Part shown: one piece after another, positions 3,001 to 63,800 of the stretch
How the letters are laid out: each line of letters opens with the position of its first letter
Position numbering within the stretch: the stretch's first letter is position 1
Assembly: GCF_902459465.1 (NCBI RefSeq)
Contig: NC_047064.1
Location: 704,762-768,761, forward strand
DNA: 64,000 nt
Source of the DNA: Asterias rubens
Taxonomy: Eukaryota
Reading direction: 5' to 3'
Translations under genes and position numbers: made by a program
The notes under the pieces: generated by a model
What the model saw: only the letters and a program-made list of their open reading frames with translations
The model's database searches: none
Told to the model about the DNA's origin: nothing

Positions 3001-4179
3001 AACCAGGATTGTTGGATAATAAATCACAGCCCTTTTAGCAGTAGTCCGTAAAATAGTATTGCAGTGAAAGAATAAAAGGTTGACAAATAACCCAATGCCT
3101 AGCTACTGCTGTATGGAGCATTTGTGTAGATACTGAGGGTTGTTTTGTTTGAACTGTTGCCCTTAAGTAATCAAAAGTTCAATAAGAATGGGTGCTAACC
3201 TTTGGCATAATCAGCTTGGTGTTGCCAACACAAACTCCCTAAATATACAATCTGTAAAGCAACCTACAGGTCAATCATACATGGCACCCAGTGTGTCCAA
3301 ATGCTTCAGTTGATGTTCTCAAGCAAGGTGATTTATTTCAATTATACAATGCTACACATGGACTCGGGAGTATTGTTTAAAATGTATCAAGTAAAAGCCA
3401 CAAGGGGAATGGACTGGGTAATTTTTTGGTTGAACAAAGAAAACTGGACTAGAGCAGGACATGAACTTGCAACCTCCCGATCAACATGCAAGCACTCTAA
3501 TAATTGTGCTAGTTGGGGTGGTTTCCTTAATTTGTCAATATCCTGTACTGCAAATAGCCAGGAATCCCACCCAAGTTTATGATACAACCTGTGAAACTGC
3601 AGCAGGGGGATCACCTTTAAATGCATGTAGTATGAACAAATTTATCTTTAATTTGTCCCTATGATAACAGTTCTTAGATAGGACATGCAACATGAGAAGT
3701 TATTGATAAAATCAATAAGTAACAGGATTAGCTAAAACAAACATGGTTGATATGTTTCTGGACACTAGGGTATCAAAATAGATCTGCTGGCATTGAGGAC
3801 AGTTTTGAGAGGGAATCTTAATGAAAAAAATATCTGTATGTGAAGCATTCTGTTCACCAGAATGTTTACATTCAGAAATGGTTTAAGTAAACACTTGTAT
3901 ACATTTTTTATGTATGAATATGGTATTGTCACATACAAACAATTGTCTGTAGCAAGTGTTTCGTAAATGTATCTGATTTCATTTTAACAGCTCGGTCTTT
4001 TTTCTTGTAACAAATTAATAATTAACACTTTTTAGAACATAATGAATAGGCCAAGATAAAAACAAATTGTTTTTGTTTTGTTGACATCTTCATTATGTGG
4101 GATGATGGAGGACTAAGGTGTGTACTAAATGACACAATTTTTGTTTCTATATAGCTGACCAATTGAAAACTAAAGTCAG

Positions 4180-4263
4180 TTAATCTGTTAGTTTCTTTAG
4201 TTAATCTGTTAGTTTCTTTAGTTAATTTGTTAGTTTCTTTAGTTAATCTGTTAGTTTCTTTGG
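4180..4263 (+). repeat. 4× tandem repeat of the 21-bp unit GTTAATCTGTTAGTTTCTTTA
   Basis: Visible directly. Confidence 0.85.
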
Positions 4264-24718: not shown

Positions 24719-25088
24719 ATTAAAGGCACTGGACAACTGAGTTTGGTAATTACTCAAAATTTGTATTTGCATAAAAGCTTACTTGGAAACAAGAAACAGA
24801 GCTGTTGATAATACAAAACATTGTGAGAAAAGACTTCCTCTGAAGTAGCATAGTTTTTGAGAAAGATATAATTTCTCACTAAAGTATTTTAATCTGCCAC
24901 AGACTTCAGGCATGAAGCCTATCTCAGCCATCTAAAAGCAAACATAATTTGTGTAACAACGGTGTTTTTTTCTTTCATTATTGTCTTGCAACTTCGATGA
25001 CCAGTTGAGTCCAGATTTGTTATTGCTCATTTTGGGATACACCAAGTGAGAATACTTGGCAATTACCTAATGTGTAAAGTGCCTTGAA
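24719..25088 (+). mobile_element. MITE family 1 copy in TEP1 intron 13
   Basis: It starts taaaggcactggacaactgagtttggtaattactcaaaa and ends …cttggcaattacctaatgtgtaaagtgcctt, sharing the internal motif 'ttgtgagaaa…ctctgaag'. Confidence 0.7.
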
Positions 25089-44795: not shown

Positions 44796-44856
44796 GTGAG
44801 TTTTATTTCTGAAGATCAATAACTCTTTCAGTTTTCTTCTCTTTTCTCCTCTCTTT

Positions 44857-45957
44857 CCTGAGCCCAATTTCATGGCTCTGCTTACTGTAAGCAAAGAATC
44901 AATGCTTACCGTAAGCAAAGAATCAATGCTTACCATAAGCAAAGAATCAATGCTTACCGTAAGCAAAGATTCAATGCTTACCATAAGCAAAGAATCAATG
45001 CTTACCGTAAGCAAAGAATCAATGCTTACTGTAAGCAAAGAATCAATGCTAAGCAAAGAATCAATGCTTACCGTAAGCAAAGAATCAATGCTTACCGTAA
45101 GCAAAGAATCAATGCTTACCGTAAGCAAAGAATCAATGCTTACCGTAAGCAAAGAATCAATGCTTACCGTAAGCAAAGAATCAATGCTTACCGTAAGCAA
45201 AGAATCAATGCTTACCGTAAGCAAAGAATCAATGCTTACCGTAAGCAAAGAATCAATGCTTACCGTAAGCAAAGAATCAATGCTTACCGTAAGCAAAGAA
45301 TCAATGCTTACCGTAAGCAAAGAATCAGTGCTTACTGAAAGCAAAGAATCAATTCTCATGTAAGCAGGGAATCAATGCTTACCGCAAGCGAAGAATCAAC
45401 GCTTACCATAAGCTCAGAAATCCCTGCTTACTGTAAACAAAGAATCAATGCTTACCGTAAGCAAAGAATCAATGCTTACCGTAAGCAAAGAATCAATGCT
45501 TACCGTAAGCAAAGAATCAATGCTTACCGTAAGCAAAGAATCAATGCTTACCGTAAGCAAAGAATCAATGCTTACCGTAAGCAAAGAATCAGTGCTTACT
45601 GAAAGCAAAGAATCAATTCTCATGTAAGCAGGGAATCAATGCTTACCGCAAGCGAAGAATCAACGCTTACCATAAGCTCAGAAATCCCTGCTTACTGTAA
45701 ACAAAGAATCAATGCTTACCGTAAGCAAAGAATCAATGCTTACCGTAAGCAAAGAATCAATGATTATGTAAGCAGAGAATTCTGAGTTTACATCAAGCAA
45801 AGTTCACAGGTTAGCAGGGAATTATTGCTTGTGTGTGTGCATGTTCTACGAAACTTCGCTTGCACATCTAGCGAAGAAACTTGGCGCTTGCCCTGTAAGC
45901 GAAGAATAGTGATTGCAAATGCAGAATTTGACAGTAAGCAGACCCATGAAACTGGGC
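44857..45957. mobile_element. MITE family 2 copy (TIR GCCCAATTTCATGGCTCTGCTTAC…GTAAGCAGACCCATGAAACTGGGCCC) whose interior is expanded into a 24-bp satellite
   Basis: The terminal inverted repeats are recognisable at 44857-44885 and 45928-45957. The interior is a tandem array (see repeat 44872-45780). Confidence 0.6.
44872..45780. repeat. Satellite array of ~35 copies of the 24-bp unit AAGCAAAGAATCAATGCTTACCGT, with a 2× higher-order ~250 bp block, in TEP1 intron 43
   Basis: The periodicity is directly visible. It creates spurious long ORFs on both strands (44661..45359 minus and 44872..45363 plus). Confidence 0.9.
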
Positions 45958-46098
45958 CCAGTTCTGAGAACACTGAACTTGAGTAATTATAAGTTTGTCT
46001 CTGCTGGTATCCCCCTTTAACCCCCCCCCCCCCCCCCCCCCCCCGATGCAAATTTAACATCATTTCTAATCTTCGGGAAAAAATACTACTTTTTACAG

Positions 46099-50379: not shown

Positions 50380-50499
50380 ATGTTTCAGAGCAGTACTCAG
50401 AAGAGATGCTGGACATTCAGCAGCGAAAAGGATGTAGAAATTCTCAGACAAGAATGCAATACTCGATTCCAAGAACAACATCATCTTATCTCAGCAAAG
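50380..50499 (+). CDS. CCNH: Cyclin H exon 1 (MFQSSTQKRCWTFSSEKDVEILRQECNTRFQEQHHLISAK)
   Basis: The ATG is at 50380 and the donor is AAG|GTTTGT. The sequence aligns to human CCNH '[30 protein letters not shown]…'. Confidence 0.85.
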
Positions 50500-51650
50500 G
50501 TTTGTTTAAAAAATACTAGGCCTCAGCATGGAGGTAGAAATGGCCTATGTATGGTAGGGCCTACTTTCCAAAGTAGTTTGTAGTTGAGATGATCGTTCCT
50601 AACCCTGTACCTATTAAACTGGTCAGTGGCCAGAGGTTCGCGATCATTGCAACTAAAGTAATGTAAAGATTATATTATATATAGGCCTATAAAAGTATAA
50701 TAATAATTTTTTTTTTTTTTTTACTTGTTTTATTTTATTTTAATGTTGGCCTACTCCTATGGAACTGGAGGGATGTACTCGTTGGAAGATAGATAGATAA
50801 TTCTTTTTAGTTACGTCATGCTATGGTATGGAGTGTGAAGGAAATGGTTAAGAACAAAATGTTTAATAATCTTTAAATAATGACATTGATAATCAGGCTT
50901 AGTTGTTGCAATCAAATCCCAATGACACCGAGGCCTATATTAATGTATTTACAATGTAAGAAGCAATAATTAGGGAATAACAGTCTTGAGTCTTGAGAAG
51001 TTTAATCCCTAAACAGCTCACGTAGGAAGCTAAACTGGGACAGTGCGAGGAGGTCCGTTAACAGCGCCAGCCACCAACCAAGGTCATTAATTAGCTCGCA
51101 GTGAAGACCGGGTCCGAACACTGTTATTCCCATTAATAAATACCTTTTTAACGAAATAAATGGTACTTAAACAATACTTCCAGACATGTTCAGTGGCAAT
51201 ATTTTAGCTTTTGATGGTTCCCGTCTCTTTCGCGAGATAATGAATGGTCTGTTAAGCGCCCGTACTGGGGTCTAAGTAAGGCAAATGATTGGACGATAGC
51301 TGTTCTTTGTGCAATAAAACGCGCCCAGCTCAGTGTCCATGTAGCATGTCGCTTTTAACAAGACCATATATGGACAATTGAGGTTATATGCGCGCACCTG
51401 TTACATTAAAATTGATACATTTTCAGCTCATGTGTGCGAAGTTGCAATGGAACTTATAAGATGAATAAGCATGCGATACAGTGCAAAGTGAAACTAGTTG
51501 TACACAATGTAGGTTTAGGGGCCATTTGGTCTTTATAACGCCCGTTAATACATCCCCATGTGATCGGTTGTTGACCAATCAGAGACTTGAAACCGTTCGA
51601 GGTATTTATTAATATTGAATAATGAATCATTCAATGATTTTCTTTGACAG

Positions 51651-51773
51651 AGGAAAGATCCAGGATCTTTTTTCCTTTCTGCAAATGAGGAATACATTTT
51701 GTGTCGTCATTACGAACATCTACTGCGAGATTTCTGCCGAAGATTTGAGCCCCCAATGCCACCAAGTGTTAAG
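51651..51773 (+). CDS. CCNH: Cyclin H exon 2 (RKDPGSFFLSANEEYILCRHYEHLLRDFCRRFEPPMPPSVK)
   Basis: The acceptor is gacAG|AGG and the donor AAG|GTAAGT. The sequence matches human '…[30 protein letters not shown]'. Confidence 0.8.
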
Positions 51774-52192
51774 GTAAGTAATAAGAACATACCATGCCGA
51801 GGCCAGTAAGTACACAGAGGTTATGACCCTTGATGCCCTTGAAATGTTTTCCATTGTCTTTAATTAAGATGTTCTAATAGAGTTTCCTTTTGCAAAAGTA
51901 GCTAAGCACACTTATCGCTACTAGAATAAGGTTACCAGCCAAACTACCAAGTCTTCTGTGCGATTTGTGACTGGTCTCCTGTTCACTTTTTTTAGCATAA
52001 ATTGTTTAGCAATATTTTCTGCATAAGAAACTTCATAAAAATTGGACCTTGGATTTAAAAAAAAAAATCCAGTGACTTAGTTGCTTTTACTTAATTTTCA
52101 AGGGTGAACAGCTCGGCCTCGACTGGCTAAAGATTTGCCAAACTAGGATTCAGATCCCTAATTTTCTCAAGTTTTCTTTGGTGTCTTTACAG

Positions 52193-52266
52193 GGTTCATC
52201 ATGTGCATATTTCAAGAGATTCTACCTGCGCAACACAGTGATGGATTATCATCCTAAGTTTATTAT
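52193..52266 (+). CDS. CCNH: Cyclin H exon 3 ([24 protein letters not shown])
   Basis: The acceptor is tacAG|GGT and the donor AT|GTAAGG. The sequence matches human '[23 protein letters not shown]'. Confidence 0.85.
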
Positions 52267-52690
52267 GTAAGGATGTTCCCCCCCCCCTTCCACCCCTGAC
52301 CTACTCCTAGAACTATAAGATTGTTACTGGAGAAGACACCGCTCTAACCTCATAGGTCTTAGAATAATAACAATACTCATTACCAACCTTTTAAGCAATA
52401 ACAAATTTTCTTACGATATTAATGTTTCAACCCCTACTTCAAAAACATTATTCGCAACTAAATACTTGCTCAGGGTTAACTGCCTAAACCATTCCCATTT
52501 TTGTTATTTTTTCATTGAGGTAATTTTACCAGATTTATTTTCTTTTCTGACCTTATTTTCTGTTCTAACCTGGTGTATGCACTGTGTATTCTCAGTACTT
52601 CAAGAGTTCTGTGGAAATAAAAGTTAAATACTTAATCAAATGCATTTTCTTGATCAAGAAGTTTTAAAACTGGTGACTTTTTTTTTACAG

Positions 52691-52892
52691 GTTGACGTGT
52701 GTGTATCTTGCTTGTAAGATAGAAGAATTCAATGTCTCCATTACACAATTCTGTGGAAATCTCAGCGCTGACCAAGAGAGGGCAGCAGAGCTTATATTAG
52801 GTCACGAGTTACTCGTTATGCAACAACTTGACTTTCATCTGACTATACATAATTTATTCAGACCACTAGAGGGATTTCTTATTGATATTAAG
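52691..52892 (+). CDS. CCNH: Cyclin H exon 4, cyclin box ([25 protein letters not shown]…[22 protein letters not shown])
   Basis: The acceptor is tacAG|G and the donor AAG|GTAAAT. The sequence is near-identical to human '[25 protein letters not shown]…[22 protein letters not shown]'. Confidence 0.9.
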
Positions 52893-53610
52893 GTAAATAT
52901 ATCGTTGCATCTGTTCAAAAATATCAGGTGTAGAACCTCATCTTTGAAAGAGCTCGGCTATTTTAACAATTTGTGAAAGGCACTATGGCCAATTCCAGGG
53001 CAACAGGACAGAGGCCATGGCGCCTGTGGTCTGTGTAGTTCCAAGCCTGAAATATTGCATCTCTATTAAGGCATTATATGCCAGATACTGTGCTCTTTAT
53101 AAGTACTGTTTATTATCATTATCTCAATTATCTCATCGTATCTGCAACAAAAGACATCTAAGCTTCTATAGGTTTGGTTCATCCAGAATATTTAAACTGA
53201 GATATGACATTTTGGCACTTTCAAACTTGCATGTAACAGAGATGCTATTTTAGAAGATATGATATTGTTGCACTGACCAATAATATTGAGACTACTCTCA
53301 TGGGGTAAGGTTTGGCTTCCCATTAGATTCACCACAGTAGTTCATGGTGTGAATCCCACCCTCGACCGGAGCCTTGCATGTAGATTGGGATTAGAATCTC
53401 TACCTGATTGACTGCACAGTGTTAAAGAAACTTTCCTTTTCTGAATTTATTAATCTGTGAGACGGGCATAAAGTAAAACAGTTGGGACTGTTAATTATGT
53501 GAACATTAAGTTGCAAAAATGTGTAATTTACAGTTCATATTCTGCAGTGCGTAATACTTGTCCTTTGTTTTAAACTTTGTATACAAGAAATTGATTCTGT
53601 TTGTTTTCAG

Positions 53611-53718
53611 ACACGTTTTCCATCATTAGAGAGCCCAGAACAGCTGAGGAAATCAGCGGAGGAGTTTCTTCATAGGTCGCTTGCAAGTAACGTCAGCCTC
53701 CTGTATTCACCATCACAG
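53611..53718 (+). CDS. CCNH: Cyclin H exon 5 (TRFPSLESPEQLRKSAEEFLHRSLASNVSLLYSPSQ)
   Basis: The acceptor is ttcAG|ACA and the donor CAG|GTAAAT. The sequence matches human '[36 protein letters not shown]'. Confidence 0.9.
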
Positions 53719-53759
53719 GTAAATTGGTCTCCTGTACTCACCATCTTAGTAAAAAAATC

Positions 53760-54640
53760 AGCCTATTGTACTCCCTAAGTCAGTTAAAATCAGCCTCCTG
53801 TACCGGTACTCCCTAAGTCAGTCAACATCAACCTCATGTACCGGTACTCCCTAAGTCAGTCAACATCAACCTCATGTACCGGTACTCCCTAAGTCAGTCA
53901 ACATCAACCTCATGTACCGGTACTCCCTAAGTCAGTCAAAATCAACCTCATGTACCGGTACTCCCTAAGTCAGTCAACATCAACCTCATGTACCGGTACT
54001 CCCTAAGTCAGTCAACATCAACCTCATGTACCGGTACTCCCTAAGTCAGTCAACATCAACCTCATGTACCGGTACTCCCTAAGTCAGTCAAAATCAACCT
54101 CATGTACCGGTACTCCCTAAGTCAGTCAACATCAACCTCATGTACCGGTACTCCCTAAGTCAGTCAACATCAACCTCATGTACCGGTACTCCCTAAGTCA
54201 GTCAACATCAACCTCATGTACCGGTACTCCCTAAGTCAGTCAACATCAACCTCATGTACCGGTACTCCCTAAGTCAGTCAAAATCAGCCTCCTGTACCGG
54301 TACTCCCTAAGTCAGTCAACATCAACCTCATGTACCGGTACTCCCTAAGTCAGTCAACATCAACCTCATGTACCGGTACTCCCTAAGTCAGTCAACATCA
54401 ACCTCATGTACCGGTACTCCCTAAGTCAGTCAACATCAACCTCATGTACCGGTACTCCCTAAGTCAGTCAACATCAACCTCATGTACCGGTACTCCCTAA
54501 GTCAGTCAACATCAACCTCATGTACCGGTACTCCCTAAGTCAGTCAACATCAACCTCATGTACCGGTACTCCCTAAGTCAGTCAAAATCAACCTCATGTA
54601 CCGGTACTCCCTAAGTCAGTTAAAATCAGCCTCCTGTACT
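53760..54640 (+). repeat. Minisatellite of ~22 copies of the 38-bp unit GTCAGTCAACATCAACCTCATGTACCGGTACTCCCTAA in CCNH intron 5, seeded from the exon-5 3' end
   Basis: The periodic array is directly visible. Its first degenerate copies (53690-53830) grade into the exon 5 end 'gtcagcctcctgtattcaccatcacag|gtaaattggtctcctgtactcaccatc'. Confidence 0.85.
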
Positions 54641-54938
54641 CTTTCATGTCACCTGAAATTGTTTACTGCAAACACAAAGTACCTTGCTATTAAGTGAAGA
54701 GAATCTTTAAGACCATGCAGTGTCTTATCTTGTGTCTGGACTGGAAGAGCTTCTTATAATTACTAAGATTACCAAAGTCAAACAACTCTGGTACCAAAGT
54801 TGAATGATAGTGCCATTTCTCTAAATATAATGCTCATAAAGTTACATAACTTCAGGTGGTGTAAATGAGTACCTTCAGCGTAGATGAATTAATTCATCAC
54901 AACTTTCTTAATGAGCATCTTATTTTGCTTCTTTACAG

Positions 54939-54994
54939 ATTTCCTTAGCGGCTCTTGTTACAAGTGCTGGAAGACAGAAAGTCAACATTGATAA
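54939..54994 (+). CDS. CCNH: Cyclin H exon 6 (ISLAALVTSAGRQKVNID)
   Basis: The acceptor is tacAG|ATT and the donor AA|GTGAGT. The sequence matches human '[20 protein letters not shown]'. Confidence 0.8.
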
Positions 54995-55102
54995 GTGAGT
55001 TTAAGAAAAAGCAGTCTTTTATCTACTTTTTAGAAAAGAGCTTTACACTAAAGAGATGTACCTACAAGTTTACTAGCTTGAGTCACTTCTTATTTTCACA
55101 CC

Positions 55103-55438
55103 ATGCAAAGCTTCAAACATAAGATGATGTCCACATTCTGTGGTGACTTCAAAGTGACAGTGAATCTAAAAAATAATCATCGATCACTACCCCTTGCCGA
55201 GAGTATAGATGTCTTTGCAACACTTACGGGAGGACAGAGATACAGCAAACTTGATCTACGTCAAGCTTACCTACATATGGTGATGGACCCCGACTCCAAT
55301 AAGTTGCTCACAATCAACACTCACAAGGGACTCTTTGCTTTCAACTGCCTAGCCTTTGGTGTAGCGTCTGCACCTGCCACGTGGCAAGAACCATGGAACA
55401 AATTCTACAAAGCATACCTGGCGTTTAATGTGTACTGA
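55103..55438 (+). mobile_element. Reverse-transcriptase fragment of an LTR (gypsy/BEL-like) retrotransposon, degenerate remnant inside CCNH intron 6
   Basis: The ORF peptide …GGQRYSKLDLRQAYLHMVMDPDSNKLLTINTHKGLFAFNCLAFGVASAPATWQ… carries RT motifs (SKLDL..AY.Q, F…L.FG…AP). It is only 111 aa and lacks flanking pol/LTR structure. Confidence 0.6.
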
Positions 55439-55572
55439 ATGACATGTTTCAACCCTAGAGGGCGCTATTTATAGAATGAAAGTGGCAATGTGCATACAAG
55501 GATCTTACATAAAGTTGATTACATTGGGGCACATTTCCCCAGATGATGAGTTTTTCCTTTTTTTCTGATCAG

Positions 55573-55643
55573 GTATGTGACGGATTTCTTGCTCAGTAGT
55601 GGAAAGAAAGAAGATCTTAAAGAACTAGTCATGTCCATAAAAA
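55573..55643 (+). CDS. CCNH: Cyclin H exon 7 (KYVTDFLLSSGKKEDLKELVMSIK)
   Basis: The acceptor is atcAG|G and the donor A|GTAAGT. The phases link exons 6 and 8. Confidence 0.7.
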
Positions 55644-56427
55644 GTAAGTTTCTCACATCATGAGGCATGTTGTGGTCGAGGGTTTTTAGTGCATCAGACT
55701 CGAGACCCGGGGTTAGGGTTCGAATCCCGGTCATGGCACTTGTGTCTTTGAGCAATAACTATAATTACTTCTCTACAAATGGCTGCCTGTGAGGTCAGAG
55801 ATGGTTCTTGTGAATGATTCAGCTTGGTATGTTACACACTGAGCAGCATGGGATGTATACTCCCCAGGAAGATGTGATGGTTTAAGGGAAAAATAACTGG
55901 CCCAGTGACCAGGGGATTAATGTTTGGGTGCAAAGAGTGTCGCTGAGTGACGGATTTGAGCGCTGTTTAAGAGTCCACTCATATTATTGTTAATATAATG
56001 TACAAAAGGTTCTAGGTCAGGATTTGATAAACCTTTCATTTTTATAGTTTGTTGAAAATGGCTCAGTTTTTTCATAATTTCATTGAATGAAGATCTTGGG
56101 GTAGTTTGAAGCAAATTTTTCTGAAGAATGTTCACTTTTAACTTATAATTATCTTTCACACAAAAAAAAATCTAAACATTTAGCTTAACTGTTTCGCTTT
56201 GAGAAAATCAAATAGTATTAAGATTTTGTTAAAAACATGGTACTAATCTTACTATAATTATGTTAAATGATCCTAGTTAGTTAACGATGTCGTATTTTTC
56301 AGACTATTTGTATGTGAAGTATTAACAGCGGATATTCTTGTGTGTATATTTTGCTTTTGAGAAAGACTCTGCTAGGGTTGACACGTCAGGCCATTAACTA
56401 TTTCTTTGTCTGTGTTTGTTTTCTCAG

Positions 56428-56539
56428 AAATCCGTTACTTAGTGAGTAACATTCCTCCTCTAGACATCGAAGTAGTGAAGAGTCTCGAGAAGAAGTTGGA
56501 CCAATGTCTCAACCAAGAACTCAATCCAGACAGTGCGAT
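56428..56539 (+). CDS. CCNH: Cyclin H exon 8 (KIRYLVSNIPPLDIEVVKSLEKKLDQCLNQELNPDSA)
   Basis: The acceptor is ctcAG|AA and the donor AT|GTAAGT. The sequence matches human '[34 protein letters not shown]'. Confidence 0.8.
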
Positions 56540-56597
56540 GTAAGTCAAGATTAGTAGCAGAACTCAGAAAACACTCAGCCAACATTTTCCTTGTGAC

Positions 56598-56730
56598 TAA
56601 GGCCCAATTTCATAAAGCCTGTGAGCACCAAAATTTGCTAAGCACAGACACGTACCTACCAAAATACCTTAAGTTTACTATGCTGTGAAGGGGACCAACT
56701 CATTTTTTGCTTAGCAAAAACAATTGTAGT
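56598..56730. mobile_element. MITE family 2-like copy in CCNH intron 8
   Basis: The sequence is aggcccaatttcataaagcctgtgagcaccaaaatttgctaagcac…ttgcttagcaaaaac. Confidence 0.5.
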
Positions 56731-57726
56731 TGAAAAAAAACAATCCTTTAAGAAGCTGTTCAAGGACATGCATGACCATTTTATTATGCCATGTTTTTTG
56801 GAGCACGGTTATTGAAATAGTATCCCTGGCCTACATTTCCAACCAAAATGGTTGGAACAAAATACCCCATCCCCATCCCCCCAAAACGGCCTGATATACT
56901 TCTGTCATTTGGAAGTAGTCCACCACTTCTTCAAGGAGGTAGGGGTGGTGATCTGTTGACACCAAGGGCATGACCAGGGCATCGTTGAGGCCTTGGCGTC
57001 GCTTACCACTGTGAAATACCAGACCTAAAGGTGTAGATTGACAAACGGCAGTAAATCACGGCAGAAATATGCCAATGAATAAGAAGATTACGGCTGCGGC
57101 TAGATCGCCCTGTTTCGCATTGAAATATAGGATGTCCTTAGCAACACCCTTAGCAACAGCCATAGCCATAGCCGTAGCCATAGGCTATAGTATACAAATA
57201 TTGACTGCTTCGAGTGCTATGGTTAAAACTATGACTCCCGAGGTGATCCCCGGAGCGTTCTATTCTCCCGAGGCGAAGCCGAGGGGAAATAGAATGCTAC
57301 GGGGATCACCGAGGGAGTCATAGTTTTTAACCATTGCACGAGTAAAAGCAGTCAATATTTGTTTTATAACACCCCAAACATTTCTAAATACTGTACTATT
57401 ATTATTTAGTTACAGACCTGAATGCTACAATCCACGGACGACGCGAATACAGATTGCAAACACTTTTACTGTGCTGCATGTAGTGTCGTGCAATCCGAAA
57501 TGGTTACAGACTATTAATTTGTCATCCTCGTACATGCAACGGACGTCTGGGTACTGCACGCCGTGTGCTAGTCTTCGGACTAGCGCATGGCAAACCGACG
57601 CATTATCACACGGCCGTCGTCTAACAAAACTAAGACATGTCATGTAACGCGCTCTAAACCAATGAGCAGGCAGAATACTTGCAAGGGGTGTTATAATGTG
57701 CCCTATTACAACATAGCAGGGCTTAC

Positions 57727-58116
57727 CCTTAAAGACACTGGACCCTATTGGTAATTGTCAAAAACCAGTCTTCTCACTTAGTGTATCTCAACATACGCAT
57801 AAAATGACAAACCTGTGAAAATTAGAGCTCGATTGGTCGTCGGAGTTGCCAGATAACTATGAAAGAAAAAACACCCATGTCACACGAAGTTGTGTGCTTT
57901 CAGATGCTTGATTTCGAGACCTCAAATTCTAGATCTGAGGTCTCAAAATCAAATTCATGGAAAATTACTTCTTTCTCGAAAACTACGTCACTTCAGAGGA
58001 AGCCGTTTCTCACAATGTTTTATACTATCAACAGCTCCCCATTACTTGTTTACAATTGAGGTTTTATGCTAATAATTATTTTTAGTAATTACCAATAGTG
58101 TCCACTGCCTTTAACT
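57727..58116 (-). mobile_element. MITE family 1 full copy (reverse) in CCNH intron 8
   Basis: The ends are cttaaagacactggaccctattggtaattg … taattaccaatagtgtccactgcctttaac, and the internal sequence matches 36790-37175. Confidence 0.75.
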
Positions 58117-58667
58117 CTAGCCCAACGTTCATTGTCTAGTCAAAACTGCTATGGGCCAGTAAACACCATTTACCCTGTGGGCTTTTAAAATCTGCCCAAC
58201 CTACATTTCTTCCTTTTCAGATGTGAATAATAGATTTTGAAAAAAAAGGAGTAAATTTATTTTTGACTGTGTGAATGCAATTTCATTTGGCCATTAAACT
58301 GTTTGTGATTGACCATTTATACATAAAAAAATATACATGTTTAGAATGTGGACTACTAAAACTTCTTGGGAGCAATTAAAATGCACCCATGTGAGCTGCT
58401 TTACAAAAAGCTTCCAAGTGCAAGAGGCATGATATCTTTGCTGTGGTTAGGGCAAGGTTTTTTTCCTTTTCTGAGTTATGTATAGCTCTATGAAGATTGA
58501 CCAGGGGCATGAAGGTGATTGTCTCAGTTAAAGCCATTGGACCCTTTCGGTAAACAGTAGTGTCCAAGGCCCACACTTCGTGTATCACAACTTATATATA
58601 AAATAACGAACCTGTGAAAATTTAGGCTCAATTAGTCATTGGAGTCGGGAGGAAACCCACCTTTGTT

Positions 58668-58900
58668 TCCGCACATTTCGCCGTGTCATGACATGTGTTT
58701 AAAATAAATCCGTAATTCTGGATATCGAGAATTGATATTGTTTTAATGTTTTCTCGAAAAGTAAAGCATTTCATGGAATAATATTTCAAGAGAAGTCTTT
58801 TACCATTACCTTCTGTAAACCCTGTAAGTTATTTGTAAATCTGTGAACTTAAAAAAAAAAAATGATGTTCCGAAAGTTTCCAATGGCTTTAATGTATCAG
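58668..58900 (+). repeat. Second copy of the 6066-6300 dispersed repeat, in CCNH intron 8
   Basis: See 6066-6300. Confidence 0.8.
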
Positions 58901-59084
58901 GCTTGTATAGACAGTTTTTTTTATAACTGCGTAAAGTTTTATGAAATCGGCTGCTGGACTTGTTTGGTCTTGAGTTTAGTGGCTCCATGCTAATGTCACT
59001 GGCCCCAGGCTCTATGTCATATGTTAATCACTAGATACAGTTTAAAAGATCTCTAATTCTTCTATATTGTTATTTCGAATTCAG

Positions 59085-59184
59085 TTACAAGAAGAAGGTC
59101 CAAGAATTACTGGATGCAGAAGATGAAGACTTCACACTAGAAAACTACACACAAAATGAGGTTGGTACGATGAGACTCCTTTAA
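59085..59184 (+). CDS. CCNH: Cyclin H terminal exon (IYKKKVQELLDAEDEDFTLENYTQNEVGTMRLL*), stop TAA 59182-59184
   Basis: The acceptor is ttcAG|T. The acidic tail corresponds to human 'ITKKRKGYEDDDYVSKK…'. The exact 3' end is uncertain because a GAG|GTTGGT donor at 59161 could splice to a further exon. Confidence 0.55.
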
Positions 59185-60569: not shown

Positions 60570-61095
60570 AAAAATAATCACTAGCACTCCGAACTAAATG
60601 ACATCATATTTGATATTTATGGCTGCTATAGTCACCTTCGTGTCGCTTTTTTCCTCTGCTTTTGAAAAAAAAGTAAAGCAATCCTTTATATATTTCCTTC
60701 ATACTTTCAAATTAGGTAAATAAATTGACCAAATTAATGCATGAAATAGTTCTGAACTCACGTTTTTACCCTAGTTATATCTTTCTCATCGGTTAAATGA
60801 CAAAGACTCTGCTACATGTAGGTCTGAAATGCGACGCCATTTTATGCGACGCCATTTCCACTTTTTACTTTTCTTTTCATCATGGATCAAACATTTTGTG
60901 CTTTCTTCCGACGCCACCCAGGGCGTATGACAATTTATTTTCAATCACTGAATGTAAGCAATAAAACATCGTTTTTAAAGCACACTTTAGAAATTAATAA
61001 CAATTTCAACGATGAACATCAATCATTCATGGGAATGTCAACTGAACCCTCAGTCCTGCCTTAGGCACAACAAAACAATCCAAAATAAAAATGAC
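60570..61095 (+). repeat. Segmental duplicate block B (copy 1); copy 2 at 61740-62235
   Basis: About 500 bp are near-identical (tttatggctgctatagtcaccttcgtgtcgc…caaaataaaaatga). The block order is A-B…B'-A', so this is not a simple tandem duplication. Confidence 0.85.
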
Positions 61096-61739: not shown

Positions 61740-62235
61740 ATTTATTTATGGCTGCTATAGTCACCTTCGTGTCGCTTTTTTTCCTCTGCTTTTGAAAAAA
61801 AAGTAAAGCAATCCTTTATATATTTCCTTCATACTTTCAAATTAGGTAAATAAATTGACCAAATTAATGCATGAAATAGTTCTGAACTCACGTTTTTACC
61901 CTAGTTATATCTTTCTCATCGGTTAAATGACAAAGACTCTGCTACATGTAGGTCTGAAATGCGACGCCATTTTATGCGACGCCATTTCCACTTTTTACTT
62001 TTCTTTTCATCATGGATCAAACATTTTGTGCTTTCCTCCGACGCCACCCAGGGCGTATGACAATTTATTTTCAATCACTGATCGTAGTTAACAACAAAGC
62101 AATAAAACATCGTTTTTAAAGCACACTTTAGAAATTAATAACAATTTCAACGATGAACATCAATCATTCATGGGAATGTCAACTGAACCCTCAGTCCTGC
62201 CTTAGGCACAACAAAACAATCCAAAATAAAAATGA
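61740..62235 (+). repeat. Segmental duplicate block B (copy 2)
   Basis: See 60570-61095. Confidence 0.85.
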
Positions 62236-63416: not shown

Positions 63417-63800
63417 CTTGCATCTGTTGATTGTGTAGATCATTTCAAGAAACATTGCAAGAAACATTTCAAGAAACATTTCAAGAAACTTCTTAAGAAA
63501 CTTTTTAAGAAACATTTCAAGAAACATTTCAAGAAATGTTTCAAGAAATGTTTCTTGAAATGTTTCAAGAAACATTTCAAGAAACTTTTTAAGAAACATT
63601 TCAAGAAACGTTTCAAGAAACATTTCAAGAATAATTTCAAGGACTATTTCAAGAAACTTGTTAAGAAACATTTCAAGAAACATTTCAAGAAACATTTTTA
63701 ACATTTCAAGAAACATTTCAAGAAACATTTCAAGAAACATTTCAAGAAACATTTCAAGAAACAATTCAAGAAACATTTCAAGAAACATTTCCTTCAAAGA
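63417..63800. repeat. ~30 copies of the 12-bp unit GAAACATTTCAA (variants AAGAAACTTCTT, ATGTTTC), partly palindromic
   Basis: The array is directly visible. It creates the spurious minus ORFs MFLEMFLE… and FLKCFLK…. Confidence 0.9.

What the first reader, a model, noticed from the sequence alone, without database searches (positions are those of the whole stretch)
53611..54640. CCNH intron 5 minisatellite (~22 × 38 bp) seeded from the exon 5 3' end and donor region
The array unit GTCAGTCAACATCAACCTCATGTACCGGTACTCCCTAA grades, through progressively diverged copies, back into the real exon 5 end and donor (…AACGTCAGCCTCCTGTATTCACCATCACAG|GTAAATTGGTCTCCTGTACTCACCATC…). This is the same class of event as the TEP1 exon 16 array. 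In two unrelated genes in one window, tandem expansions nucleate exactly at exon-donor junctions, which suggests a recurrent mechanism such as replication slippage or unequal crossing-over at donor-proximal sequence.
Basis: seen in the sequence. Interest (0 to 1): 0.5.

Follow-up and report, generated by a model that had tools for sequence, protein, structure and literature searches.

The report
Exon-end-derived minisatellite in starfish cyclin H
Intron 5 of the starfish (Asterias rubens) cyclin H gene holds a real 38-bp × 23 tandem repeat that grew in place from an old copy of the end of exon 5; this kind of repeat is already known from human F7 and from amphioxus "mirages", so it is a tidy but ordinary example.

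Summary
TRF finds one array at 53768-54639 (period 38, 22.9 copies, 97% matches). 17 units are identical, and the unit occurs nowhere else in the window.

The window is Asterias rubens.

The last 32 nt of the exon are followed by a 31-nt copy (24/32 identical), then a 30-nt copy, then the 38-mers. The two edge units and one inner unit still carry the exon's 13-mer TCAGCCTCCTGTA (0 of 6270 control windows score as well).

In A. amurensis the same intron starts with a single exon-like copy and has no array. Patiria and Amphiura have the same intron position and no copy. So the exon is the source, the first duplication is old, and the expansion is specific to the A. rubens lineage.

The amplified unit carries a 6-nt insertion that creates the palindrome GTACCGGTAC. 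It has lost the donor GT.

A second boundary-spanning array (41 bp × 4, perfect donors) sits in the neighbouring TEP1-like gene at 26341-26502.

The class is known (human F7, CBS, IFI6, LMNB2, PDGFA; amphioxus "mirages"). Two cases in one window do not show a donor-specific mutational mechanism. Tolerance of junction-spanning duplications explains them.

The parts
53611..53718 (+). Cyclin H (CCNH) coding exon 5, TRFPSLESPEQLRKSAEEFLHRSLASNVSLLYSPSQ
   Evidence: Translation and tblastn. 100% match to A. rubens XP_033624941.1. Orthologous exon present in A. amurensis, Patiria and Amphiura.
53687..53718 (+). Copy E: the exonic source segment GTAACGTCAGCCTCCTGTATTCACCATCACAG (codons for ..S-N-V-S-L-L-Y-S-P-S-Q)
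   Evidence: 24/32 identical to the next 31 nt. Contains the 13-mer TCAGCCTCCTGTA shared with the edge units. Conserved as coding sequence in other echinoderms, so it is the ancestral copy.
53719..53749 (+). Copy C1: GTAAATTGGTCTCCTGTACTCACCATCTTAG. Its first 6 nt are the authentic donor (CAG|GTAAAT, 8/9 match to the consensus).
   Evidence: 24/32 identical to the A. rubens exon end and 26/32 to the A. amurensis exon end.
53750..53779 (+). Copy C2: TAAAAAAATCAGCCTATTGTACTCCCTAAG, a 30-nt decayed copy without the CGGTAC insertion
   Evidence: 26/38 identical to the first 38-mer and 24/34 to the single intronic copy of A. amurensis.
53780..54615 (+). 22 full 38-bp units TCAGTCAACATCAACCTCATGTACCGGTACTCCCTAAG. 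Order of variants: C AAAB AAAB AAAA D AAAAAAA B. 17 units are identical.
   Evidence: TRF, pattern search, unit typing.
54616..54639 (+). Last, partial unit TCAGTTAAAATCAGCCTCCTGTAC. It is of the ancestral-like edge type and keeps the exon 13-mer.
53800..53809 (.). First instance of the perfect palindrome GTACCGGTAC, created by a 6-nt insertion (CGGTAC) relative to C1, C2 and the exon. It is present once in every full 38-mer.
   Evidence: Alignment of C2 against C3. Palindromes of neighbouring units pair as 10-bp stems in the predicted single-strand fold, z -2.2 to -2.7.
54640..54938 (+). Non-repetitive remainder of intron 5. The 3' ~230 nt align with A. amurensis intron 5 at 84% identity.
   Evidence: Alignment A2.
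54939..54994 (+). CCNH coding exon 6 (ISLAALVTSAGRQKVNIDK)
26341..26502 (+). Companion case in the TEP1-like gene: a 41-bp x 4 array. Its first unit is the last ~30 nt of an exon (ends 26371, ...LIKGSGLEVFDG) plus GTAAGTTCCC. Perfect donors GG|GTAAGT recur at 26372, 26413, 26454 and 26495.
   Evidence: TRF and sequence. The gene has TROVE, DUF4062, STAND NTPase and WD40/TEP1 propeller matches in order.

Best explanation
This is a neutral intronic minisatellite that arose in place from the 3' end of CCNH exon 5. It belongs to the class of 'boundary-spanning' or 'mirage' repeats.

Step 1 (inferred, old). A ~31-32-bp tandem duplication covering the last ~30 nt of the exon and the donor placed an exon-like copy at the start of intron 5. 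Splicing continued from the upstream donor, so the mRNA did not change and the copy was free to decay. This state, one intronic copy, is what A. amurensis shows today.

Step 2 (inferred). In A. rubens there are two decayed 30-31-nt copies, C1 and C2. C1 has a 5' end like the intron start and a 3' part like the ancestral exon. That pattern is expected from unequal exchange between the exon copy and the first intronic copy, or from a second duplication.

Step 3 (partly shown). One copy gained 6 nt (CGGTAC), making the palindrome GTACCGGTAC, plus 2 more nt, which gave a 38-bp unit. This unit was then amplified to about 22 copies by replication slippage and/or unequal sister-chromatid exchange. 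The most derived variant expanded in the interior. Exon-like variants were left at both edges.

Present effect. The array triples the length of intron 5. It adds about 22 weak pseudo-donors (TAA|GTCAGT, 6/9 consensus). Every one of them would give a premature stop if used. No function is needed to explain it. It should be a length-polymorphic VNTR.
For: Array and its uniqueness.

Exon identity and junction.

Similarity of units to the exon end above empirical nulls: 0/6270 and 18/6270; 26/8818.

Polarity. The exon segment encodes conserved NVSLLYSPSQ and is present in Patiria, Amphiura and A. amurensis with the same intron position. Patiria and Amphiura have no repeat at the donor.

A. amurensis.
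- The exon is followed by one exon-like copy, GTAAAAACATTCACCTGTACTCCTCCCAAG + TCAGTA. It is 22/33 identical to its own exon, with 46/8712 controls as high.
- That copy is 26/34 identical to the A. rubens unit once CGGTAC is removed.
- There is no 38-mer and no array.

All intronic copies have GTAC where the A. rubens exon has GTAT and the A. amurensis exon has GTAC, so the copies derive from an ancestral exon version.

Edge units are ancestral-like and the interior is homogenised: order C AAAB AAAB AAAA D AAAAAAA B E.

There are no terminal inverted repeats, no Rfam family and no copy in JGI metagenome contigs.

Donor scores and in-frame stops.

Precedents. The first monomer spans the boundary and only the upstream donor is used in human F7 IVS7 (PMC1557585). 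Amphioxus mirages show homogenised centres and diverged boundary units (PMC3087553).
Against: - The exact breakpoints of the first duplication cannot be recovered. The apparent GTAA microhomology at the starts of E and C1 is part of the homology itself and is not independent evidence.
- With only two Asterias species, gain of the array in A. rubens cannot be separated from loss in A. amurensis. That intron also took a ~130-nt SINE-like insertion.
- Identity of the consensus unit to the exon is only about 60%. The case rests on the edge units, the intermediate copies and the sister-species copy.
- No RNA data were available, so use of the first donor rests on the RefSeq model.
- No population data were available, so polymorphism is a prediction.
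- The role of the palindrome in expansion is a correlation (only palindrome-bearing units amplified) with a modest fold z-score.
Confidence: 0.8

Rival explanations
1. Donor-proximal mutational hotspot. Something about exon-donor junctions themselves, such as slippage-prone sequence or splice-site-associated processes, makes tandem duplications start there more often than elsewhere. This would make such arrays recurrent in this genome.
For: Two boundary-spanning arrays in two unrelated genes lie within 64 kb. The CCNH junction may have duplicated twice, giving C1 and C2/I1. Amphioxus authors remarked that mirages may be a general phenomenon there (PMC3087553).
Against: The introns concerned were short before expansion, about 290-435 nt. 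A random intragenic duplication of 30-40 nt therefore touches the donor about 10% of the time. With about six intragenic arrays in the window, P(>=2) is about 0.12 (my estimate). The largest other array, 44879-45780, starts 83 nt past its donor and shows no similarity to the exon end. A selection filter predicts the same pattern without a hotspot: junction-spanning duplications are silent, and purely exonic ones are not.
Confidence: 0.15
2. Coincidence. The array grew from ordinary intronic sequence, and its resemblance to the exon end is chance similarity of C/T-rich sequence.
For: The consensus unit is only about 60% identical to the exon end. Its Smith-Waterman score of 20 is reached by 18 of 6270 control windows.
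Against: - The edge units share an exact 13-mer with the adjacent exon, and 0/6270 controls score as high.
- C1 is 75-81% identical to the exon end and lies directly next to it.
- The A. amurensis intron start is independently exon-like, p about 0.005.
- Only one location was tested, so no multiple-testing penalty applies.
Confidence: 0.04
3. Imported repeat. The 38-bp array is the internal satellite of a transposable element or a dispersed satellite family that inserted near the donor.
For: Many invertebrate minisatellites are transposon-borne. The window and the orthologous A. amurensis intron do contain mobile-element fragments.
Against: There is no other copy in 64 kb on either strand. No inverted repeats of >=14 nt occur within 53400-55000, the region holding the array and its flanks. 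There is no hit in metagenome contigs. A single-copy homologue of the unit sits at the orthologous site in A. amurensis. The units grade into resident sequence on the left.
Confidence: 0.03
4. Functional array. The repeats act in cis on CCNH expression or splicing, for example as decoy 5' splice sites, as a U1-binding platform, or as a multimerised binding site built on the ACCGGT/GTAC palindrome.
For: Every unit has a GTCAGT pseudo-donor (6/9) and a perfect 10-nt palindrome. Intronic VNTRs at boundaries affect splicing or expression in some human genes (F7 and CBS, cited in PMC1557585).
Against: The array is absent from A. amurensis, Patiria and Amphiura. The near-identity of units indicates recent turnover rather than conservation. 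The homologous donor GT has been lost rather than kept.
Confidence: 0.05

Closest known systems
Human F7 intron 7 37-bp VNTR, and the similar CBS IVS13 31-bp, IFI6 (6-16) intron 2, LMNB2 100-bp and PDGFA 81-bp minisatellites (Borensztajn et al. 2006, PMC1557585)
   Same: An intragenic minisatellite of almost the same unit size (37-38 bp). The array begins at an exon-donor junction, the repeats are homologous to the boundary, and the mRNA is made from the most upstream donor.
   Different: In F7 the first monomer holds only 4 exonic nt, and all monomers carry identical functional pseudo-donors. Here about 30 exonic nt were copied. The junction copies have decayed to 57-75% identity. The amplified 38-mer has lost the homologous GT and gained a 6-nt palindrome-forming insertion. 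Copy number is higher (about 22 against 5-9).
Amphioxus 'mirage' minisatellites (Adh3; globin genes BflGb6 and BflGb9; Ebner et al. 2010, PMC3087553, citing Canestro et al. 2002)
   Same: Tandem duplications of exon-intron boundaries in an invertebrate deuterostome. Regular splicing is not disturbed. The interior is homogenised by concerted evolution, while boundary units escape homogenisation. This is exactly the pattern seen here.
   Different: Mirage units reported there are 10-160 bp, and many keep their AG/GT signals. No echinoderm example turned up in my literature searches, which is not proof that none exists. The CCNH array is an older, degenerate version. The TEP1-like 41-bp x 4 array in the same window is the 'fresh' version.
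Rogers-type intron gain by tandem duplication of an AGGT-containing exon segment
   Same: The same initial mutation, tandem duplication across a (proto-)splice site, with splicing hiding the duplicate.
   Different: No intron was gained here. Intron 5 is at the same position in Patiria, Amphiura and A. amurensis. The duplicate simply extended an existing intron.

Membership tests
Boundary-spanning ('mirage' / F7-type) minisatellite | Head-to-tail tandem array with a unit of roughly 10-160 bp inside a gene | tested here: met
   TRF: period 38, 22.9 copies, 97% matches. The array lies inside CCNH intron 5.
Boundary-spanning ('mirage' / F7-type) minisatellite | The first monomer spans the exon-intron boundary, so the repeats are homologous to the exon end | tested here: met
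   Exon end against adjacent copy: 24/32 (26/8818 controls as high). Edge unit shares a 13-mer with the exon (0/6270). The chain runs E-C1-C2-38-mers. The sister species has one exon-like copy at the same place.
Boundary-spanning ('mirage' / F7-type) minisatellite | The donor splice signal is reiterated in the monomers (pseudo-sites) | tested here: not met
   Only C1 carries a good donor, and it is the authentic one (CAG|GTAAAT, 8/9). At the homologous position C2 has TAG|TAAAAA and the 38-mers have AAG|TCAGT. A shifted TAA|GTCAGT scores 6/9. The TEP1-like array at 26341-26502 does meet this feature.
Boundary-spanning ('mirage' / F7-type) minisatellite | mRNA is spliced from the authentic, most upstream donor | tested here: inconclusive
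   The RefSeq protein XP_033624941.1 joins ...SPSQ|ISLAAL... as expected. No transcript reads could be examined.
Boundary-spanning ('mirage' / F7-type) minisatellite | Copy-number polymorphism or instability between alleles | not testable with these tools
   Only one A. rubens assembly was available. The protein look-up found no other A. rubens contig for this gene.
Transposon-borne or dispersed satellite | Copies at other loci, and terminal repeats or other element hallmarks around the array | tested here: not met
   No other copy in the window. No inverted repeats >=14 nt in 53400-55000. No metagenome hit. The whole genome was not searchable.
Intron gain by tandem duplication (Rogers model) | The intron sits at a lineage-specific position and is created by the duplication | tested here: not met
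   The same intron position after ...PSQ is present in Patiria, Amphiura and A. amurensis.

The most novel reading that the evidence does not exclude
Boundary-spanning ('mirage') minisatellites are unusually frequent in asteroid genomes, as was suggested for amphioxus. On this reading, exon-donor junctions are real birth sites for tandem arrays in highly polymorphic invertebrate deuterostomes. The TEP1-like array (young, donors intact) and the CCNH array (old base, donors lost, recent re-expansion of a palindrome-bearing variant) would be two stages of one life cycle. That life cycle could feed intron lengthening and occasional new splice sites.
Probability: 0.15. Interest if true: 0.5.

Novelty: new member of a known kind. 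Interest (0 to 1): 0.25.

Why it matters
The biology is not new, but the example is unusually legible as a record of how a minisatellite is born and matures. The exon supplies a dated, selectively frozen reference copy. The sister species preserves the one-copy stage. The edges of the array preserve intermediate variants. Together with the younger TEP1-like array 27 kb upstream, it suggests that the 'mirage' repeats described in amphioxus also occur in echinoderms. For annotation, such arrays can mislead gene predictors and short-read assemblers: a metagenome contig of this very locus breaks inside the TEP1-like array. They are also good candidate VNTR markers for Asterias population work.

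Tried and rejected
1. It starts 83 nt after its donor, and its unit scores at background against the exon end and spacer (10-13 against a null mean of 11). It is not a boundary array.

2. A protein search with two TEP1-like exon peptides returned only a 74-aa ORF call from a metagenome contig, not a TEP1 protein. I established gene identity by Pfam instead. I could not verify the label 'exon 16'.

3. Look-ups of the A. rubens and Acanthaster cyclin H loci found nothing on record. The Lytechinus locus (L003) was fetched but not analysed.

4. A metagenome scan for the unit found 0 hits. An Rfam scan of the window found 0 hits. An inverted-repeat search around the array found 0 pairs. ARAGORN on the SINE-like insert of A. 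amurensis found 0 genes.

5. I considered GTAA microhomology at the two ends of the duplicated 32-mer as evidence for slippage. I rejected it as circular, because the second GTAA is itself part of the copy.

6. I considered an in-frame cryptic donor at 53749 (TTA|GTAAAA, +30 nt, VNWSPVLTIL). Its consensus match is only 4/9, so I did not pursue it.

7. An Amphiura 37-bp x 2.3 repeat lies 33 nt after the exon 6 donor (L002 7710-7797). It showed no convincing similarity to the exon end by eye, and I did not count it.

Full report
**What is there.**
Tandem Repeats Finder reports one strong array at 53768-54639: period 38, 22.9 copies, 97% matches, no indels, score 1646. All lie between 53817 and 54614, none lies elsewhere on either strand, and none is expected in shuffles.

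Read in register, the array is 22 full units (53780-54615) plus a 24-nt partial unit. There are five sequence types, in the order C AAAB AAAB AAAA D AAAAAAA B E.

**The gene.**
- tblastn with a cyclin H sequence, followed by a database search, identify the + strand gene at 50380-59175 as Asterias rubens cyclin-H-like, XP_033624941.1. It is 100% identical over the 228 residues I assembled.
- The fifth coding exon is 53611-53718 (…ASNVSLLYSPSQ). It is followed by GTAAAT. The next exon starts at 54939 (ISLAALVTS…). The annotated protein crosses exactly this junction.

**Is the unit related to the exon end?**
The sequence reads as a chain:
- E, 53687-53718: GTAACGTCAGCCTCCTGTATTCACCATCACAG (exon).
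- C1, 53719-53749: GTAAATTGGTCTCCTGTACTCACCATCTTAG.
- C2, 53750-53779: TAAAAAAATCAGCCTATTGTACTCCCTAAG.
- The first 38-mer, 53780-53817: TCAGTTAAAATCAGCCTCCTGTACCGGTACTCCCTAAG.

The similarities, with controls taken from the same window:
- E and C1 are 24/32 identical. Only 26 of 8818 pairs of adjacent segments taken across the window score as well, and those controls include other true repeats.
- The first 38-mer shares an exact 13-mer (TCAGCCTCCTGTA) with the exon. Its local alignment score against the purely exonic 59 nt is 26, which none of 6270 control windows reaches.
- The consensus unit scores 20, with 18 of 6270 as high.

Only one place was tested, so these are not diluted by multiple testing. 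Identity to the exon does not fall monotonically (C1 75%, C2 57%, first 38-mer 63%, consensus 60%). 'Grades back' is therefore a fair but slightly idealised description.

**Polarity and age, from other species.**
- In Patiria miniata (locus L001) the orthologous exon ends …AGTAACGTCTGCCTCCTATATACTCCATCCCAG|GTGAGTGG. The 667-nt intron has no such repeat.
- In the brittle star Amphiura the exon ends …CCATCACAG|GTATGA. There is also no repeat at the donor.
- The intron position is therefore old, and the exon segment is constrained coding sequence. The exon is the source, not a target.
- The congener A. amurensis (XP_071789128.1, locus L004) is the informative case. Its exon 5 ends …GTAACGTCAGCCTCCTGTACTCACCATCTCAG. 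Its intron begins GTAAAAACATTCACCTGTACTCCTCCCAAG TCAGTACGAAG….
- That first 30 nt is itself exon-like: 22/33 identical, with 46 of 8712 controls as high.
- With the following TCAGTA it matches the A. rubens unit, once the 6-nt CGGTAC is removed, at 26/34.
- A. amurensis has no 38-mer and no array anywhere in the 16.8-kb locus. It has a ~130-nt SINE-like insert instead.
- The rest of the intron aligns at 84% identity.

Three conclusions follow:
- At least one intronic copy of the exon end predates the split of the two Asterias species.
- The unit that expanded in A. rubens descends from resident sequence at this site.
- The 22-copy array of nearly identical units is a feature of the A. rubens lineage.

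With only two species I cannot formally exclude that an array was lost in A. amurensis.

Two further details fit copying from an ancestral exon:
- Every intronic copy in both species has GTAC where the A. rubens exon now has GTAT and the A. amurensis exon has GTAC.
- C1 is closer to the A. amurensis exon (26/32) than to its own (24/32).

**How the unit changed.**
Relative to C1, C2 and the exon, the 38-mer has a 6-nt insertion (CGGTAC) that creates a perfect 10-nt palindrome, GTACCGGTAC, plus 2 extra nt near its 5' end.
- Only palindrome-bearing units were amplified.
- In predicted single-strand folds, the palindromes of neighbouring units pair as 10-bp stems enclosing one unit (z -2.2 to -2.7).
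- This is compatible with slipped-strand intermediates, but it is only a correlation.

The variant series is: edge type (TTAAAATCAGCCTCCT), then D (TCAAAATCAGCCTCCT), then B (TCAAAATCAACCTCAT), then A (TCAACATCAACCTCAT). The most derived type, A, makes up 17 of the 22 full units. The exon-like 13-mer survives only in the two edge units and in D. Homogenised centres with older variants at the boundaries are the textbook signature of expansion by slippage or unequal exchange. The same pattern is described for amphioxus mirage clusters (PMC3087553).

**Splice signals.**
- The authentic donor CAG|GTAAAT matches the consensus at 8 of 9 positions.
- The homologous GT has been lost from C2 (TAG|TAAAAA) and from all 38-mers (AAG|TCAGT).
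- A shifted TAA|GTCAGT in each unit scores 6/9, with the unfavourable C at +3.
- Reading on from the exon meets TAA within C2, so any use of array donors would give a premature stop.
- One in-frame possibility is TTA|GTAAAA at 53749, which would add 30 nt. It scores only 4/9.

**Alternatives checked.**
- A transposon-borne or dispersed satellite is unlikely. There is no other copy in the window. No inverted repeats of >=14 nt occur within 53400-55000, the region holding the array and its flanks. There is no Rfam family and no hit in metagenome contigs. A single-copy homologue sits at the orthologous site.
- Pure coincidence is disfavoured by the statistics above.
- A cis-acting function cannot be excluded. 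It is not suggested by anything: the array is absent from three other echinoderms, and it looks recently turned over.

**The 'two genes in one window' argument.**
- The gene upstream has TROVE, DUF4062, STAND NTPase and WD40/TEP1-propeller matches in order on the + strand. That is a TEP1-like architecture.
- Its array at 26341-26502 is 41 bp x 4.0 at 93%. It is a clean boundary-spanning repeat.
- An open exon ends …GAAGTCTTTGACGG at 26371. The unit is the last ~30 nt of that exon plus GTAAGTTCCC. Perfect GG|GTAAGT donors recur at 26372, 26413, 26454 and 26495.
I could not verify the exon number.
- The much larger 24-bp array at 44879-45780 is not of this kind. It begins 83 nt past its donor, and its unit is at background similarity to the exon end.

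Does two-in-64-kb imply a donor-specific mechanism? The two introns were about 290-435 nt long before expansion. A 30-40-nt duplication placed at random in them touches the donor about 10% of the time. With about six intragenic arrays in the window, the chance of two or more is about 0.12. This is my rough estimate, not a tool result.

A filter also suffices. A tandem duplication with both ends in an exon alters the protein. One that spans the exon-donor junction leaves the first donor intact and hides the copy in the intron. The human F7 work shows experimentally that the most upstream of reiterated donors is the one selected (PMC1557585).

**Comparison with what is known.**
The class is described.
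- Borensztajn et al. [quoted passage not shown]
- Ebner et al. [quoted passage not shown]

The CCNH array meets two defining features: it is a tandem array, and it is homologous to the exon end at the boundary. It fails a third, since donors are not reiterated in the bulk units. It is best described as an old, degenerate member whose derived unit re-expanded. The TEP1-like array is a young, typical member. My searches did not turn up an echinoderm example, but that is weak evidence of novelty.

**Verdict.**
The origin from the exon 5 end is supported and refined. The inferred special mechanism is not supported by the present evidence. The feature is a new member of a known kind, most likely neutral. 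Interest is low to moderate.

Noticed in passing
window 44879-45780: A 24-bp x 37.9 array (TGCTTACCGTAAGCAAAGAATCAA) in an intron of the TEP1-like gene. It starts 83 nt after the donor at 44796. The unit holds the inverted repeat TGCTTAC-C-GTAAGCA and folds very strongly as single-stranded DNA (-20.2 kcal/mol for 96 nt, z -8.2). A diverged block of ~130 nt appears twice (about 45310-45440 and 45570-45700), which suggests a higher-order duplication.
   Followed up: partly
window 26341-26502: A 41-bp x 4 array that reiterates the end of a TEP1-like exon together with four perfect GG|GTAAGT donors.
   Followed up: partly
L005 (ENA ERZ23498484, SOLA22-1 metagenome scaffold_234053) = window 24969-26422: An environmental metagenome contig is 99.66% identical to this starfish locus. 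It ends inside the 41-bp array, and its second unit differs from the window at one base (GGTCTAGAAG against GGTCTAAAAG). So starfish DNA is present in a metagenome, the assembly breaks at the repeat, and there is a hint of allelic variation.
   Followed up: partly
L004 about 4125-4250 (A. amurensis CCNH intron 5): A ~130-nt insert absent from A. rubens. It has tRNA-like motifs on the minus strand (…GGGGATTCGAAC…, …GCTCGGCCAC…) and looks like a tRNA-derived SINE. ARAGORN calls no tRNA.
   Followed up: partly
window about 55000-56400 (CCNH intron 6): Frame-shifted fragments resembling a retroelement reverse transcriptase (e.g. …YPLPRV…, …LDLRQAYLHM…) appear in the three-frame translation. This is probably a decayed LTR or other retrotransposon insertion.
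   Followed up: no
window 60829-60857 and 61959-61987; L004 11390-11431: The same short tandem motif (ATGCGACGCCATTTT x ~2) occurs twice, 1130 bp apart, downstream of CCNH in A. rubens. It occurs again in the A. amurensis locus. It may mark the ends of a repeated element.
   Followed up: no
L004 14209-15663: A 1.45-kb pure (TAT)485 microsatellite lies near the 3' end of the A. amurensis CCNH gene model. No counterpart of that size is in the A. rubens window.
   Followed up: no
window 63441-63791 and 46021-46044: A 12-bp x 29.5 array (CATTTCAAGAAA, 85% matches) near the end of the window, and a 24-nt poly-C run in a TEP1-like intron. Neither was examined.
   Followed up: no
window 53749 (TTA|GTAAAA): A GT at the C1/C2 boundary would extend exon 5 by exactly 30 nt in frame (VNWSPVLTIL) if used as a donor. 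Its consensus match is only 4/9.
   Followed up: partly
window 14900-48200 (TEP1-like gene): Two exon peptides of this gene found no annotated TEP1 protein in the 5.8-billion-protein collection, only a metagenome ORF call. The cyclin H protein of the same assembly is present in that collection.
   Followed up: no
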